This document shows, piece by piece, positions 21,237-53,101 of a stretch of 64,000 bases of DNA (positions are counted from its first letter, which is position 1; each line of letters starts with the position of its first letter). Location of the stretch: contig NC_042997.1 of assembly GCF_006345805.1 (NCBI RefSeq), forward strand, positions 63,736,001-63,800,000, in the 5' to 3' direction. The stretch comes from Octopus sinensis. Lineage: Eukaryota. The notes beneath the pieces are model-generated. The model was given only the letters and a program-made list of their open reading frames with translations. It did not search any database and had not been told where the DNA came from. The translations under genes and the position numbers were made by a program.

Positions 21237-21559
21237 GTGAGGGCGCGTGGCTTAGTGGTTAGGGCATTCGGCTCATGATCGTAAGGTTGTGAGTTCGATT
21301 CCCGGCGACGCGTTGTGTCCTTGAGCAAGACACTTTATTTCACGTTGCTCCAGTCCACTCAGCTGGCAAAAATGAGTTGTACTTGTATTTCAAAGGGTCA
21401 GCCTTGTCACTCTCTGTGTCACGCTGATTATCCCCGAGAACTACGTTAAGGGTACACGTGTCTGTGGAATGCTCAGCCATTTTCACGTTAATTTCACGAG
21501 CAAGCTGTTCCGTTGATCATATCAGCTGGGACCCTCGTCGTCGTAACCGGCGGAGTCTT
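21237..21559 (+). mobile_element. Young full-length tRNA-derived CORE-like SINE with 12-bp target-site duplication (TSD)
   Basis: A-box TGGCTTAGTGG, B-box GAGTTCGATTCC, TGTCCTTGAGCAAGACACTT core. TSD TAATTAGAAGAA at 21225-21236 and 21560-21571. Confidence 0.9.
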
Positions 21560-28683: not shown

Positions 28684-29066
28684 GGAAGCACTCCGTCGGT
28701 TACGACGATGAGGGTTCCGGTTGATCTGATCAACGGAACAGCCTGCTCGTGAAATTAACGTGTAAGTGGCTGAGCACTCCACAGACACGTGTACCCTTAA
28801 CGTAGTTCTCGGGGATATTCAGCGTGACACAGAGAGTGACAAGGCTGGCCCTTTGAAATACAGGTACAACAGAAGCAGGAAGTAAGAGTGAGAGAAAGTT
28901 GTGGTGTAAGAGTACAGCATGGACCACCACCATCCCTGCCGGAGCCTCGTGGAGCTCTAGGTGCTTTCGCTCAATAAACACTCACAACGCCCGGTCTGGG
29001 AATCGAAACCGCGATTCTACGACCGCGAGTCCGCTGCCCTAACCACTGGGCCATTGCGCCTCCACA
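28684..29066 (-). mobile_element. Young full-length tRNA-derived SINE sharing its 3' tail with 21237-21559
   Basis: Minus-strand head GTGGAGGCGCAATGGCCCAGTGGTTAGGGCAGCGG, B-box GGTTTCGATTCC. The 3' ~180 nt match 21375-21556. Imperfect TSD TTTT(G/A)TGGAGT on both sides. Confidence 0.88.
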
Positions 29067-35514: not shown

Positions 35515-35578
<64 letters not shown>

Positions 35579-35659
35579 GGTCCCGGGTTGATTCGGGGTT
35601 AACCACAGTAAATAAGGTACTCAATAAATAGCAGAGTAAAATTTATTTATTATATAGAA

Positions 35660-35713
35660 GGAGCTTCTACAGGACTAGAACTGTTTCATTCAAGAGAAAT
35701 CATCAGGAGCTTC
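35660..35713 (-). ncRNA. Type I hammerhead ribozyme, family A (minus arm of the palindrome)
   Basis: Minus strand: gaagctc CTGATGA tttc tctt gaat GAAA CAG ttctagtc CTG TA gaagctcc. Stem III intact; stem I has a 1-nt bulge. Confidence 0.7.
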
Positions 35714-35760
35714 CTGATGATTTCTCTTGAATGAAACAGTTCTAGTCCCGTAGAAGCTCC
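35706..35760 (+). ncRNA. Type I hammerhead ribozyme, family A (plus arm)
   Basis: Stem I GGAGCTTC/GAAGCTCC, core CTGATGA 35714-35720, stem II TTC/GAA with U.U closing, GAAA 35733-35736, stem III ACAG/CCGT (one mismatch), GUA site with cleavage predicted after 35752. Confidence 0.72.
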
Positions 35761-35772
35761 TTCTATATAATA

Positions 35773-35812
<40 letters not shown>

Positions 35813-35917
35813 TATATATATGTATATATGTATAAGGGTGGAAAGGAACACACGAGTTGATATATATGAAAAAACAAGTCAAAAATAGAAAATGCTAAGA
35901 TAATTTTATAGTGAATC

Positions 35918-35961
35918 TTTCAGTACCGGTTTCGGTCATTTTGAGACCTTTTCAACTGTAA
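35918..35961 (-). ncRNA. Minimal type I hammerhead ribozyme in the PLE pseudo-LTR, U3-A8 core variant (family B)
   Basis: Minus strand: tacag TTGAAAA GGTC tcaaaat GACC GAAA CCGG TA ctgaa. Stem II 4 bp, palindromic stem III ACCGGT, GUA site, stem I CAG/CTG; same sense as the ORF. Confidence 0.8.
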
Positions 35962-36295
35962 CGATTAAATAATTAAATTTAGAAACATTAGAAAAAAAGT
36001 TTTTTTAAAAGAATATTTCTATAGTAGTGTTCAGATATAAGTAGCATTCTGCCTTTCTCTGACTCCCTTGTTTGCACTTGTGTGTTCGAGGTCGTTGTGA
36101 GTTCTTGGTAGGGTAGGTGAAGAATAAGGAGGCTGATGTGGAGAGGGGGTGGGGAAATCTGGGAATGCCTTGATGGTCGTATTTTGAATGGTCAGTGGCT
36201 GACAGCAGTCGCAGTTCAATTCAGGAATTGTATATGGAATTTGCGTAGGCGTTATATTGAAAGACATTAGTGACAAGGTTAAGGGGTGGAAGGTG

Positions 36296-36480
36296 GAGAA
36301 GTAGAAGAAGAAGAAGAAGATGACGATGTTGATGATGATGATGATGAAGAAGAAGAAGAAGAAGAAGAAGAAGAAGGAGGAGAAGGAGAAGATGATGGTG
36401 ATGATGGTGGTGATGATGATGACGACGATGATGATGATAATGATGATGATGAAGAAGAAGAGGAAGAAGAAGAAGAAAAA
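36296..36480. repeat. Compound (GAA)/(GAT)/(GAC) microsatellite inside the PLE 3' region (mirrored at ~38640-38812)
   Basis: Directly visible in both inverted arms, with slightly different unit counts. Confidence 0.95.
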
Positions 36481-36605
36481 AACAGAGAAGGGAGAATATG
36501 AATGGGTGAAAGTATAGCTGTGATGGGGCTGATTAGTAATGGATTCTATGGAGTGTAATATTTGTGTGTGTATATATATTTCTTTTATTCTAAAGTTGAG
36601 GTATA

Positions 36606-38279
36606 TTAATTGTTTGTCGTAGACCCGTTAAGAAGTGGCTTGTATTTTGTAATAAAGAGATTTTCTTTACTTATTCGTTGTCTCGAGGTTGTATCGTCCC
36701 TAAATTGGTAGAGGGGGAAAATCCTGAAGTTTGGTGTTTTTGTGTTGGCGCAAGTATCTATGTGTTGGCTAAAAGCTATTTTTCTGTTTTGGGGAATTTT
36801 TATCTGGGATCTGTGCAGGGCCATTCGTTTACGCAAACCATTTTTTGTTTGGCCTATGTACTGCTCTTGACACCCGGAGCAGGTTAGTGAGTATATTAGG
36901 TTCTCCGAAGCACATGTGAAGTTGCTTTTCACTGTAAACCGTTGTCCCTGTTTGAAGGAGAACTCTGATCCCTCAATTAGATAGTCGCATATCCCGCAAT
37001 TGGGTCTTCCACATTTTTTTACTGTCGGCTTCTGTGTTGAAGAGTGAATTCGGGCTTGTGTTAGGAGACTTTTCATGGATCTAAGCTGTCTTTTGCTTTT
37101 TATGATCTCGTGTGTTTGGAGGATTGTGTTCATTCTGTGGTCTTTTTTTAGGAGGGGTATGTTGCGGAGGATGGTGCCGAAGGCTTCGTTATTGAGAGGG
37201 TTGTGTGTGGAGATGTATGGTAAGGCTTTTGGTTGTAAGTTTTTCTTTGATTTGGGATGTCTCAGTTCCTTGATGTTAAGTTGAAGGGCACGTTGAATGC
37301 ACTTGTCAATAAGTGAAGGTGGATAGTTCCTGGTGATAAGGGTATCTTTTAGTTCTTGTAGTCGTGTGTCTCTGGTGTTTGCGTTAGAGACTATAGTGCA
37401 TATCCTTTTTGCTAGATTGAAGGGGATATTCATCCTGGTGTGTCTGGGGTGGCATGAATTGAATGGAAGATATTGCTTAGAGTCTGTAGGCTTATAGTAT
37501 ATGTCTATTTCTATTATATTATTAGCTTTCTTAATGAGGATATCGAGGAAGGGGAGTTGTTGCTGGCTATATTCCATCGTGAATTTGATGTTTACGTCCA
37601 GTCCGTTTAAAATTTCCTGGAATTCTATGAGTTTTTCTATATTTTTATGCCAAAGGATGAAACAGTCATCTAGATATCTCTTCCAGTTGTTTTCTATGTA
37701 GATGGAGAAAAGGCTGCCATATCTTTCTAGAACCTTACGATACAGACTGATCTCTAGGTATCCTATGACTAGGTTGGCAAAGGAGGGGGCCATTCCTGTA
37801 CCCATCGCAGTCCCCGATTTTTGTCTGTAGAAGTTGTCATTGAAGGCGAAGAAGTTATTTTCCAGGATGAATTTAACCCCTTCTATCACAAATTCTTTTT
37901 TGATGCGGTGTGGTAGTTCGTTGGCGTGATTCTCTAGCCAGAATTGGATTGCCTCTAGTCCTAGGTTGTGGGGGATATTGGAGTAGAGGTTGACTACATC
38001 GAAGGATACAAGTATGGTGTTTTTGTTTATAGTATTCGGTAGGTGATTGAGCATATCTAAGTCGTCCCTTATATAGCTTTTGACATGTTTGAGGAGTGGT
38101 TTTAACAGGGTGTCTAAAAAGTTACTGAGGCGGTGGGTTTCGCATGCGGGACCTGCTATTATGGGTCTCAATTTGAGGTCATTAGGATTAGGGACTTTAA
38201 TTATTTTGTCTGTAGCTATCTTGCATGCGTTGCTTATTTTTTCACTTTTGTGGATCTTAGGTATACCGTAGAATTGGCT
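36606..38279 (-). CDS. PLE polyprotein, 5'-truncated: reverse transcriptase + Cys-rich linker + GIY-YIG endonuclease
   Basis: The frame is open 36 codons upstream of the track's TTG start and includes FYGIPKIHK. RT motifs LRPII, SFDVVNLYSNIP, GTAMGT, RYLDD, LPFLDI, YYKPT; linker CGRPNCGIC; endonuclease LIYSLTCSGCQEQYIGQT..RMALH..H..E..LN. No internal stops over 557 codons. Confidence 0.95.
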   Translation of the reverse strand, partial: SQFYGIPKIHKSEKISNACKIATDKIIKVPNPNDLKLRPIIAGPACETHRLSNFLDTLLKPLLKHVKSYIRDDLDMLNHLPNTINKNTILVSFDVVNLYSNIPHNLGLEAIQFWLENHANELPHRIKKEFVIEGVKFILENNFFAFNDNFYRQKSGTAMGTGMAPSFANLVIGYLEISLYRKVLERYGSLFSIYIENNWKRYLDDCFILWHKNIEKLIEFQEILNGLDVNIKFTMEYSQQQLPFLDILIKKANNIIEIDIYYKPTDSKQYLPFNSCHPRHTRMNIPFNLAKRICTIVSNANTRDTRLQELKDTLITRNYPPSLIDKCIQRALQLNIKELRHPKSKKNLQPKALPYISTHNPLNNEAFGTILRNIPLLKKDHRMNTILQTHEIIKSKRQLRSMKSLLTQARIHSSTQKPTVKKCGRPNCGICDYLIEGSEFSFKQGQRFTVKSNFTCASENLIYSLTCSGCQEQYIGQTKNGLRKRMALHRSQIKIPQNRKIAFSQHIDTCANTKTPNFRIFPLYQFRDDTTSRQRISKENLFITKYKPLLNGSTTNN

Positions 38280-39147
38280 AGATTCCAGATAAAAATTGGC
38301 ACAGATCCCAGATAAAAATTCCCCAAAACAGAAAAATAGCTTTTAGCCAACACATAGATACTTGCGCCAACAAAAAAAACACCAAACTTCAGGATTTTCC
38401 CCCTCTACCAATTTAGGGACGATACAACCTCGAGACAACGAATAAGTAAAGAAAATCTCTTTATTACAAAATACAAGCCACTTCTTAACGGGTCTACGAC
38501 AAACAATTAATATACCTCAACTTTAGAATAAAAGAAATATATACACACACAAATATTACACTCCATAGAATCCATTACTAATCAGCCCCATCACAGCTAT
38601 ACTTTCACCCATTCATATTCTCCCTTCTCTGTTTTTATCTTCTTCTTCTTCCTCTTCTTCTTCATCATCATCATTATCATCATCATCGTCGTCATCATCA
38701 TCACCACCATCATCACCATCATCTTCTCCTTCTCCTCCTTCTTCTTCTTCTTCTTCTTCTTCTTCATCATCATCATCATCAACATCGTCATCTTCTTCTT
38801 CTTCTACTTCTCCACCTTCCACCCCTTAACCTTGTCACTAATGTCTTTTAGTATAACGCCTACGCAAATTCCATAAACAATTCCTGAATTGAACTGCGAC
38901 TGCTGTCAGCCACTGACCATTCAAAATACGACCATCAAGGCATTCCCAGATTTCCCCACCCCCTCTCCACATCAGCCTCCTTATTCTTCACCTACCCTAC
39001 CAAGAACTCACAACGACCTCGAACACACAAGTGCAAACAAGGGAGTCAGAGAAAGGCAGAATGCTACTTATGTCTGAACACTACTATAGAAATATTCTTT
39101 TAAAAAAACTTTTCTTATAAATTTTCTAAATTTAATTATTTAATCGT

Positions 39148-39190
39148 TACAGTTGAAAAAGTCTCAAAATGACCGAAACCGGTACTGAAA
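39148..39190 (+). ncRNA. Second copy of the family B hammerhead, in the inverted arm
   Basis: tacag TTGAAAA AGTC tcaaaat GACC GAAA CCGG TA ctgaaa; G10.1 to A breaks the first stem II pair. Confidence 0.65.
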
Positions 39191-39261
39191 GATTCACTAT
39201 AAAATTATCTTAGCATTTTCTATTTTTGACTTGTTTTTTCATATATATATATATATATATA

Positions 39262-51511: not shown

Positions 51512-51556
<45 letters not shown>

Positions 51557-51563
51557 ATATACC

Positions 51564-52437
51564 TATAAATGAGGGCAAACGAAACAAAATTTCTAATGCC
51601 AAATAATCCGAAATTAGACACATTGTCCATTACCATTATAATTTTTCATAATACGCACGCTATTCCCCAAAAGGTCGACAGAAATATCAAAACAATTCCA
51701 TTATTACCATATCGGACCGTCAGTGATAAACGTGGTAAAGAAATAAATGAGATACTTACTCATACCCATGGAAGAAGCAAAAACTAAGTCATGAGTACAA
51801 TTAAGTACCCCCAATACATCCAAAATAGAAATTCTCCAGCCCATTAGAGGCACGTGCGATTTGAACTGAACCTCTCTCAGAGTGAGAGAGTCCGGAAGTG
51901 AACACTATTAAATTTATATTTAATGTAGGATAAAAAAAAAATTTATCAATGACCAGCATTTTAAAAAATGCCTTTAAAGGTTAAATTTATAAACAACTTA
52001 TAAATGAGGGCAAACGAAAGAAATTTTCTAATGCCAAATATGCCGAAATTAGACACATTGTCCATTATCATTAATTTTTTTTTTTTTCGAAAAAAATTTT
52101 ATCCTACATTAAATATAAATTTAATAGTGTTCACTTTTATCACTGACGAAGGGAGAGTTCCTTGGAACTAACCCTGAAATCGGTCCGATATGGTAATAAT
52201 GGAATTTTTTATAAATTTCTGTCAACCTTTTTTGGAGTAGTGCGCGTTTGGGAAAAATTGTAATAATAATGGACAATGTGTCTAATTTCGGCATAATAGG
52301 CATTAGAAAATTTTTTTCGTTTGCCCTCATTTATAAGATGTTTATAAATTTAACCTTTAAAGGCATTTTTTAATATGCTGGCCATTGATAAATTTTTTTG
52401 TTTTCAAAAGAAAAAAAATTATCCAACATTAAATATA
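51564..52437. mobile_element. HHR-bearing short repeat (family C) as two opposed partial tandems, flanked by (TA)n
   Basis: + monomer 52091-52410 restarts at ~52411 (AAAATT(TT)ATCC(T/A)ACATTAAATATA). 51564-51730 and 51897-52075 are reverse-complement copies of the same unit. Confidence 0.8.
52138..52190 (+). ncRNA. Type I hammerhead ribozyme (family C)
   Basis: tatca CTGACGA (52143-52149) AGGG ag AGTTC cttg GAACT aa CCCT GAAA TCGG TC cgata. Extended stem II, minimal stem III, GUC site after 52185, stem I TATC/GATA with an A.C mismatch next to the core. Confidence 0.75.
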
Positions 52438-52477
52438 TATATATAGTAATATATATATATATATTAATTGATCGACC

Positions 52478-52702
52478 GGTACTCCGTCGGTTACGACGAG
52501 CAGGGCTCCGGCTGATCCGATCAACGGAACAGACTGCTCATGAAATTAATGTGCAAGTCGCTGAGCACTCTACAGATACGAGTGCATAGTAGTTCTCAGG
52601 GCGATTCAGCGTGGCACAGAGTATGACAAGGCTGGCCCTTTGAAATGCCGGTACTACATAGTTTGCGAGCCCAGTGGATTGGAGCAACGTGAAATGAAAT
52701 AT

Positions 52703-52705
<3 letters not shown>
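52478..52705 (-). mobile_element. 5'-truncated SINE (tail shared with the 21237 and 28684 families)
   Basis: ACTCCGTCGGTTACGACGA...GACAAGGCTGGCCCTTTGAAAT...GGAGCAACGTGAAAT is the reverse complement of 21335-21556. Confidence 0.8.
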
Positions 52706-52882: not shown

Positions 52883-53101
52883 CAGGCGTTTTCAACCAGG
52901 GTTCTGCGTAACCTTAGGGTTCCGCCAGTACAGTCCAGGGGTTCCGCAAGAAGTTACAAAACTGCTAAAATCGACAGTAATTTTAAATTCTCCTGTGCAG
53001 ATATATGTGCATAAGATTATTAAATTATTGCACAGGGGTTCCTCGAGCCAGTGGAATGTTTCTTTGGGGTTCCGCTCCAGCAAAAAGTTTGAAAAGCACT
53101 G
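52883..53101. mobile_element. hAT-like MITE
   Basis: TIRs CAGGCGTTTTCAACC / AGTTTGAAAAGCACTG with repeated GGGTTCC subterminal motifs; no clean TSD. Confidence 0.6.

What the first reader, a model, noticed from the sequence alone, without database searches (positions are those of the whole stretch)
51564..52437. ~320-bp HHR monomer in partial tandem: retrozyme-like unit
Seen: a + monomer (52091-52410) with one HHR (52138-52190) that restarts its own beginning at ~52411. An opposite-orientation tandem of the same unit lies at 51564-52075; its two copies start about 436 bp apart and include an extra ~165-bp segment (51731-51896). No protein-like ORF is present, and (TA)n flanks both sides. Known: non-LTR retrozyme monomers are a few hundred nt with one type I HHR each. 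Inference: greater-than-unit-length, permuted copies fit reverse transcription of a circular RNA template.
Basis: partly seen in the sequence, partly recalled or inferred. Interest (0 to 1): 0.75.

Follow-up and report, generated by a model that had tools for sequence, protein, structure and literature searches.

The report
Damaged Penelope-mobilised hammerhead retrozyme copy
This is an old, twice-deleted copy of a scattered 479-base non-coding repeat that carries a flawed self-cutting RNA motif and was likely pasted in by a Penelope-type jumping gene; the 320-base unit exists only at this one spot, and a circular RNA intermediate remains unproven.

Summary
The repeats are real, but the unit was misread. 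The family unit is about 479 nt. The 320-bp plus copy has lost the 165-bp segment (that join occurs once in the genome), and the minus copy has lost 34 nt of its hammerhead. Only one hammerhead remains, so this locus cannot release a 320-nt circle. The family is dispersed (945 exact hits to one 20-mer). Copies are not freely permuted: 231 of 258 arms end at one of two fixed sites about 85 nt apart, mostly into (TA)n. In head-to-head insertions with both ends classed, 76 of 77 pair one site with the other. This is the known Penelope footprint (inverted arm, one-sided tail), also shown by a coding Penelope element in this window. Arms run through the cut site (twice in 10), so the template was longer than one unit. 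Linear or circular is undecided. The hammerhead has an A·C mismatch at the cut, and a sister subfamily lacking U16 spreads the same way, so cleavage may be dispensable. No coding partner with this terminus was found. The scan has noted this pattern before in this and other genomes.

The parts
51542..51561 (+). Left copy of a probable target-site duplication: (TA)n interrupted by GTAA
   Evidence: The 12-mer TATAGTAATATA occurs only twice in the window, at 51550 and 52442, i.e. at the two edges of the element. Length up to ~20 bp is uncertain because of TA slippage.
51562..52080 (-). Minus arm, 565 template nt: unit positions 329-479 then 1-414, ending at the tail-less start site S2
51705..51730 (-). 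Remnant of the second hammerhead; unit positions 223-256 (34 nt of core and stem II) deleted between two CG dinucleotides
   Evidence: deletion bridged by an independent contig
51731..51896 (-). The 165-bp segment: a normal part of the unit, holding a long conserved hairpin
   Evidence: present at 88-95% identity between the same neighbours in other copies; hairpin in the consensus fold
52081..52082 (.). Head-to-head junction of the two 5'-truncated arms, inside a T run
52083..52433 (+). Plus arm: unit positions ~473-479, 1-46, [47-207 deleted], 208-479, 1-~27, ending at the tailed start site S1
52132..52136 (+). Private deletion join that removed the 165-bp segment and created the apparent 320-bp monomer
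   Evidence: 1 exact match genome-wide; 0 of 55 other units
52137..52190 (+). Type I hammerhead motif: core CUGACGA 52143-52149, extended stem II 52150-52175, GAAA 52176-52179, one-pair stem III with self-pairing loop, predicted cut 52185^52186; A52142 and C52186 mispair at 2.1-1.1
   Evidence: sequence; column counts; covariation; cofold of two loop-III regions pairs them
52434..52453 (+). Right copy of the probable target-site duplication

Best explanation
The stretch 51562-52433 is one old insertion of a dispersed, non-coding, hammerhead-bearing element with a unit of about 479 nt, likely copied into a (TA)n tract by the enzyme of a Penelope-like retrotransposon (PLE) and later damaged by two private deletions. 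Shown: unit length, copy number, two fixed 3' ends, one of each per two-armed insertion, passage through the cut site, the deletions. Inferred mechanism: a PLE protein (probably a dimer) nicks both strands of the TA target about 20 bp apart; one strand primes cDNA at site S1 and the other at site S2, about 85 nt upstream, on the same longer-than-unit RNA; both cDNAs stop early and are joined head to head. I favour, narrowly, an uncut linear multimer as template (about 0.45, against 0.35-0.4 for a circle), with hammerhead cleavage weak or not needed for spread. This locus itself cannot make a hammerhead-to-hammerhead monomer.
For: Copy number: 359 exact hits to a hammerhead pattern, 945 to a 20-mer upstream of both ends, reversed-pattern controls 0. 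Ends: of 258 arms in 151 loci, 121 end at S1, 110 at S2, 27 elsewhere; TA-rich sequence follows 166 of the 231. Pairing: 92 of 151 loci are head-to-head; of 95 such pairs 77 had both ends classed and 76 were S1+S2 (binomial against 0.5, p 5e-22); in the 74 loci not chosen by score or hammerhead, 48 of 48. One template: partner 5' ends lie within 20 nt in 17 of 76 pairs (permutation mean 6.3, p 5e-5); median identity within a locus 0.93 (79 inverted comparisons) and 0.945 (23 tandem) against 0.895-0.90 between loci; 31 non-majority variants are shared by all three segments in 10 three-way loci. Uncut template: 140 arms cross the cut site once and 10 twice; only 4 of 231 5' ends fall within 10 nt of it; no excess of deletions there. 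PLE link: two internal start sites define the tail, both strands are extended, and uncut RNA is the main substrate in vitro (PMC11167929, main text read); intact RT + GIY-YIG PLEs exist in this genome; a coding PLE in this window has the same two-arm, one-tail form; in 2 loci an arm directly abuts a PLE RT fragment (L252, L253). Weak ribozyme: A·C at 2.1-1.1 in 139 of the 152 units tallied; a sister subfamily (190 hits) has U at 16.1 in only 1 of 30 matches listed, yet 13 of its 43 arms exceed one unit and 6 of 6 classed pairs are S1+S2.
Against: No coding PLE with a homologous terminus was found among 44 PLE-centred loci compared or the 10, so the mobilising family is unidentified. The two abutting PLE fragments could be chance neighbours, as PLEs share the TA target (PLE fragments lie near about 9 more family loci). 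The hammerhead core is more conserved than other columns in copies not chosen by it (8 of 297 against 590 of 6837 mismatches, Fisher p 6e-5) and stem II covaries, which argues for selection on a working ribozyme and so for processing. Within-locus similarity could also come from gene conversion. In this window the terminal unit is only 85-89% like the other two segments, no better than between loci, although six non-majority variants are shared by all three. Target duplications could not be shown family-wide (21 of 76 against 19.9 in shuffled pairs). 18 of 95 pairs had an unclassed end.
Confidence: 0.75

Rival explanations
1. Same element and same PLE enzyme, but the template is a ~479-nt circular RNA made by hammerhead cleavage and ligation (classical non-LTR retrozyme cycle). 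This differs from the best explanation only in the template.
For: Arms cross the cut site seamlessly, up to twice, longest 1049 nt. Units within an insertion show no position-specific ancestry (informative sites 21:20:19 and 16:14:9), as expected from repeated copying of one monomer. No long source array was seen in 151 loci. A natural monomer folds well as a circle (z -5.6 against 40 shuffles, one monomer tested). Core is conserved. Circles are shown for coral, mussel and axolotl retrozymes (PMC7229834, results read).
Against: Both subfamilies break a core-adjacent pair that PMC3088659 (passage) used to reject hits. Only 1 of 258 arms exceeds two units. Coding PLEs show the same partial tandems. 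A homogeneous linear tandem predicts the same star-like pattern. This locus has one hammerhead.
Confidence: 0.35
2. The unit is the solo pseudo-LTR of a coding PLE that was not sampled; short copies are its 5'-truncated ends.
For: All structural marks are those of PLE ends; most PLE hammerheads occur as solo truncated copies (PMC4209133, results read); retrozymes match pLTRs in Xenopus (bioRxiv 10.64898/2026.07.22.740005).
Against: Upstream of the unit lies another unit: 36 of 231 classed arms exceed 479 nt. Among 66 unpaired 5' flanks no shared coding sequence reached the junction (four flanks shared sequence; three of them end in a short inverted piece of the unit). No homology to the PLE loci tested. 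In L092 a copy lies beside an intact PLE but in a co-duplicated flank that sister PLE copies lack.
Confidence: 0.12
3. The inverted arm arises by fold-back (self-priming) of one cDNA rather than by priming from both target strands.
For: Partner 5' ends are correlated. Self-priming is proposed for PLE inverted repeats in PMC3846280 (passage).
Against: In 40 of 76 pairs the S2 arm reaches more than 20 nt further upstream than the S1 arm, so it cannot be a copy of the S1 cDNA unless the centre was later deleted; a PLE protein extends both strands in vitro (PMC11167929).
Confidence: 0.15
4. A local satellite or assembly artefact shaped by recombination.
For: Flanks are microsatellites; the array is an imperfect palindrome.
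Against: Hundreds of dispersed copies with fixed ends; probable target duplication here; independent contigs match parts of this locus, one across the hammerhead deletion.
Confidence: 0.02

Closest known systems
Metazoan non-LTR retrozymes (Cervera and de la Pena 2020, PMC7229834, parts 2-4 of 6 read; Li, Clavereau and Pollet 2026, bioRxiv 10.64898/2026.07.22.740005, parts 1-3 of 5 read)
   Same: Non-coding, AT-rich unit of a few hundred nt with one type I hammerhead; partial tandems; coexists with coding PLEs; one-pair stem III with a self-pairing loop as in axolotl HHR_Amex1.
   Different: Unit is ~479 nt (above the 170-400 nt typical there, inside the 51-972 range of Li et al.); arrays rarely reach two full units; most insertions are head-to-head; hammerhead mispaired at the cut; circles not shown. 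This locus fails the Li et al. definition of an active retrozyme (two consecutive complete hammerheads).
EN+ Penelope-like element insertions with inverted pLTR and one-sided tail (PMC8557442 and PMC3846280, passages; PMC11167929, main text and methods)
   Same: 5' truncation, partial tandem, inverted 5'-truncated arm, tail at one end only, two internal RT start sites, (TA)n target, hammerhead upstream of the start sites, passage through the ribozyme.
   Different: No ORF; tail about 85 nt rather than 30-40; no coding family with this terminus found; the strict one-of-each use of the two sites is counted here (76 of 77), whereas the in vitro study saw no strand difference in start site.
MRC1 and other non-autonomous Chlamys PLEs (PMC8557442, passage)
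   Same: Non-autonomous elements with pLTR-like head-to-tail insertions moved by PLEs.
   Different: Those generally share 3' sequence with an autonomous family; none was found here.

Membership tests
Non-LTR retrozyme | Short non-coding repeat unit | tested here: met
   ~479-nt unit; longest stop-free frame 72 codons in the window copy
Non-LTR retrozyme | Type I hammerhead motif in each unit | tested here: inconclusive
   Family: 17 of 27 unselected units have all core bases, stem II covaries, but 2.1-1.1 is A·C in 139 of 152. This locus: 1 of 2 hammerhead positions intact.
Non-LTR retrozyme | Two or more consecutive hammerhead units in tandem | tested here: met
   Met by the family (10 arms cross the cut site twice; five two-hammerhead arms); not by this locus
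Non-LTR retrozyme | Self-cleavage and circular RNA in vivo | not testable with these tools
   Only assembled contigs of runs guessed to be RNA were available
Non-autonomous PLE-mobilised element | Fixed 3' ends at two internal start sites (tail at one end) | tested here: met
   231 of 258 arms; 76 of 77 pairs S1+S2
Non-autonomous PLE-mobilised element | Inverted 5'-truncated arm and partial tandem | tested here: met
   92 of 151 loci head-to-head, 1 tail-to-tail; 36 of 231 arms longer than one unit
Non-autonomous PLE-mobilised element | Intact EN+ PLE present in the genome with the same target | tested here: met
   781-aa RT + GIY-YIG frames in several copies at 98-99% identity, ending in (TA)n
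Solo pseudo-LTR of a coding PLE | Homology to the terminus of a coding PLE | tested here: inconclusive
   None among 44 PLE-centred loci and 10 more; only a small part of 5029 GIY-YIG candidates was examined

The most novel reading that the evidence does not exclude
Animal retrozymes of this type spread without needing their ribozyme: a PLE dimer binds one uncut RNA and primes both target strands, one subunit at each of two fixed hairpin sites, so every two-armed insertion carries exactly one tail. Two sister subfamilies that broke different core-adjacent pairs of the hammerhead both kept multiplying with longer-than-unit arms, giving a natural test of whether circles matter for retrozyme and PLE mobility.
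Probability: 0.3. Interest if true: 0.62.

Novelty: new member of a known kind. Interest (0 to 1): 0.36.

Why it matters
The locus itself is an ordinary dead copy. The family matters modestly: how retrozymes are mobilised, and whether PLE hammerheads make circular templates, are stated as open in the papers read (bioRxiv 10.64898/2026.07.22.740005; PMC8557442). About a thousand short, ORF-less insertions give clean statistics on the PLE insertion footprint (one tail per two-armed insertion, correlated 5' ends), and two subfamilies with different ribozyme flaws offer ready substrates for the published in vitro PLE assay. The scan has already recorded the same footprint in other families, so this adds a replicate plus the ribozyme-flaw contrast, not a new system.

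Tried and rejected
165-bp segment as an intron spliced from one copy: its ends are not GT-AG on either strand. An intron from the conserved GTAAGT to the TTTATAAG motif around the hammerhead: 0 of 103 spanning units look spliced, no such joint in four contig sets, and GTAAGT sits in a conserved hairpin; rejected. Two distinct unit types (terminal and interior): an artefact of shorter alignments; arms of a locus share private variants. L092 as the autonomous partner: the element lies in a co-duplicated flank. Family-wide target duplications: not above shuffled pairs. Pile-up of 5' ends at the other start site as a sign of a circle: a few cases seen, not tested statistically, and a linear multimer predicts the same; left aside. 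Expression: no RNA holder listed; contigs of runs guessed to be RNA cover the unit but cannot show level, strand, ends or circles. Rfam gave only microsatellite-driven miRNA hits. Protein remnants in the unit: none by six-frame reading and tblastn with four PLE proteins. Search of earlier findings by sequence returned one unrelated note.

Full report
Setting. The window is G000:C1:63736001-63800000 of a 2.72-Gb genome, AT-rich and full of microsatellites. Earlier scan notes call it an octopus genome; I did not test that.

Observation. A hammerhead motif lies at 52137-52190 with its core at 52143 and 52176. Rfam does not detect it. The longest stop-free frame is 72 codons.

The unit is about 479 nt. 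A search with the 320-bp piece gave 2610 first-look candidates, 40 scored; hits split into positions 1-46 and 42-320 about 165 bp apart. Mapping showed the 165-bp segment between them wherever both sides are present. The join without it has one exact match in the genome, this locus, and 0 of 55 aligned units spanning the region lack it. Spacing between two hammerheads on one arm is 454-498 nt in five arms. The minus arm here carries a second private deletion, unit positions 223-256, which removes its hammerhead core. A public contig spans that deletion without differences. So the locus holds one hammerhead and cannot yield a hammerhead-to-hammerhead monomer. Its segments are 90-91% identical to the family majority, below the family's 10th percentile of 92% (median 94%, 173 units), so it is among the more decayed copies.

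One insertion. The 12-mer TATAGTAATATA occurs twice in 64 kb, at 51550 and 52442, the two edges of the element. This reads as a target-site duplication of up to about 20 bp. The three overlapping segments share six non-majority variants in 82 columns. A family-wide test for duplications failed because the flanks are TA (21 of 76 against 19.9 shuffled).

Family architecture. Exact patterns give 359 hammerhead hits and 945 hits for a 20-mer upstream of both ends. I aligned 151 loci: the 30 best hits, loci from the first hammerhead hits, and loci from the first 100 hits of the 20-mer; overlapping fetches and near-identical duplicates (24 locus ids) were dropped before counting. Of 258 arms, 121 end at S1 (unit positions 18-42 of the next unit), 110 at S2 (405-436) and 27 elsewhere. 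True ends lie a few bases inside these ranges because TA extends the alignment; the two sites are about 85 nt apart and S2 lies in a predicted AU-rich hairpin. 92 loci are head-to-head, 1 junction is tail-to-tail. Of 95 head-to-head pairs, 18 had an unclassed end; of the other 77, 76 were S1+S2. In the 74 loci holding the unselected 20-mer hits the count is 48 of 48. Partner 5' ends lie within 20 nt in 17 of 76 pairs against 6.3 expected. Identity within loci exceeds identity between loci (0.93 against 0.895 for inverted arms, 66 of 79 comparisons; 0.945 against 0.90 for tandem units, 22 of 23). These numbers fit both arms being copied from one template, though gene conversion is not excluded.

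The template was not a cut monomer. 140 arms cross the predicted cut site once and 10 twice; 4 of 231 5' ends lie within 10 nt of it; the longest arm is 1049 nt and only 1 exceeds two units. Deletions are not enriched at the cut. In 10 loci with three overlapping segments no pair is closer than another (21:20:19 and 16:14:9) and 31 private variants are common to all three. A circle and a homogeneous linear multimer both predict this.

State of the ribozyme. Core positions vary less than other columns in 27 units not chosen by the hammerhead (8 of 297 against 8.6%), and stem II shows two-sided changes within the family (U-A 109, C-G 36) and between subfamilies. That argues for past selection on the fold. 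But position 2.1-1.1 is A·C in 139 of 152 units. A sister subfamily, found from loose ends (190 hits; about 75-81% identical, same unit), has G-C there but U at 16.1 in only 1 of 30 matches listed; it still shows the same two ends, 6 of 6 classed pairs S1+S2, and 13 of 43 arms longer than a unit (27 loci). PMC3088659 (passages) rejected candidates with either mispair, and reports at least tenfold lower activity for 15.1/16.1 mutants, so these motifs may be weak rather than dead. Activity was not tested.

Link to PLEs. PMC11167929 (main text and methods read) shows that a purified PLE protein extends both target strands, starts at two internal RNA sites that bound the tail, and uses uncut RNA. 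PMC8557442 and PMC3846280 (passages) describe the inverted 5'-truncated arm, the tail at one end and (TA)n targeting. The genome holds young two-ORF PLEs with RT, a CxxxxCxxC linker and GIY-YIG. A related PLE in this window, about 35830-39247, has a 578-codon frame, two head-to-head arms 98% alike, a variant hammerhead and a tail of about 27 nt on one arm only. In L252 an S1 arm is joined head to head, with a 1-bp gap, to a 5'-truncated PLE, and in L253 an RT fragment lies about 20 bp upstream of an arm; these two cases are suggestive only. No PLE terminus homologous to the unit was found, on a small sample of 5029 candidates.

Comparison and novelty. It works like a non-autonomous PLE passenger and is a retrozyme in the sense of PMC7229834 (parts 2-4 of 6 read) and bioRxiv 10.64898/2026.07.22.740005 (parts 1-3 of 5 read), with circles untested. 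PMC4209133 (parts 1-2 of 4 read) already proposed circles to explain PLE tandems and noted opposite-strand hammerhead pairs 100-700 bp apart. Paper searches for octopus or cephalopod with hammerhead and Penelope and for twin priming with PLE tails listed no paper whose title or abstract start describes this family or counts the one-of-each rule; I read only the listings for most hits, and the library lacks most subscription papers. Earlier notes of this scan, seen after my analysis, report the same two-site, two-arm pattern in several other families; they are unchecked and not counted as support.

Verdict. Observation partly confirmed, interpretation partly supported. New member of a known kind; interest 0.36.

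Noticed in passing
window 35830-39247: 5'-truncated coding PLE (578-codon RT + GIY-YIG frame on the minus strand, 68% to the 781-aa family) as two head-to-head arms 98% alike; variant hammerhead with UUGAAAA core and ACCGGU palindrome; tail of about 27 nt on the left arm only.
   Followed up: partly
window 35577-35777: Tiny palindromic insertion in (TA)n: two ~67-bp arms each with CTGATGA...GAAA, and a ~60-nt tail on one arm only; likely a stump of another PLE-type family.
   Followed up: partly
L092 (G000:C1:207472000-207481500): Intact two-ORF PLE (479 aa + 781 aa) flanked by a 1676-bp direct repeat at 99.3% that includes about 1.1 kb of downstream flank with a copy of this retrozyme and another repeat; looks like 3' transduction into the pseudo-LTR, or a local tandem duplication.
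   Followed up: partly
L252:2398-2400 (G000:C2:165609997): A retrozyme arm joined head to head, 1-bp gap, to a 5'-truncated GC-rich PLE whose 3' end is itself abundant (733 candidates); possible two-RNA chimera.
   Followed up: partly
L222-L251: Sister subfamily (190 hits) whose hammerhead reads GAAATTGGGAC, lacking U16.1; more than a third of the matches listed also mispair in stem I.
   Followed up: yes
window 52467-52705: SINE-like dispersed repeat directly right of the element; related copies at window 28690-28871 and 21327-21556 and in 17 fetched loci, some of which are the window's own. SINE label is from recall.
   Followed up: no
window 52883-53101: Short element with imperfect terminal inverted repeats (CAGGCGTTTTCAA / CAGTGCTTTTCAA), probably a MITE; hAT-like label is from recall.
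   Followed up: no
L098:7011-7060: Well-paired hammerhead motif on the strand opposite a nearby PLE frame, inside a separate small repeat between TA tracts.
   Followed up: no
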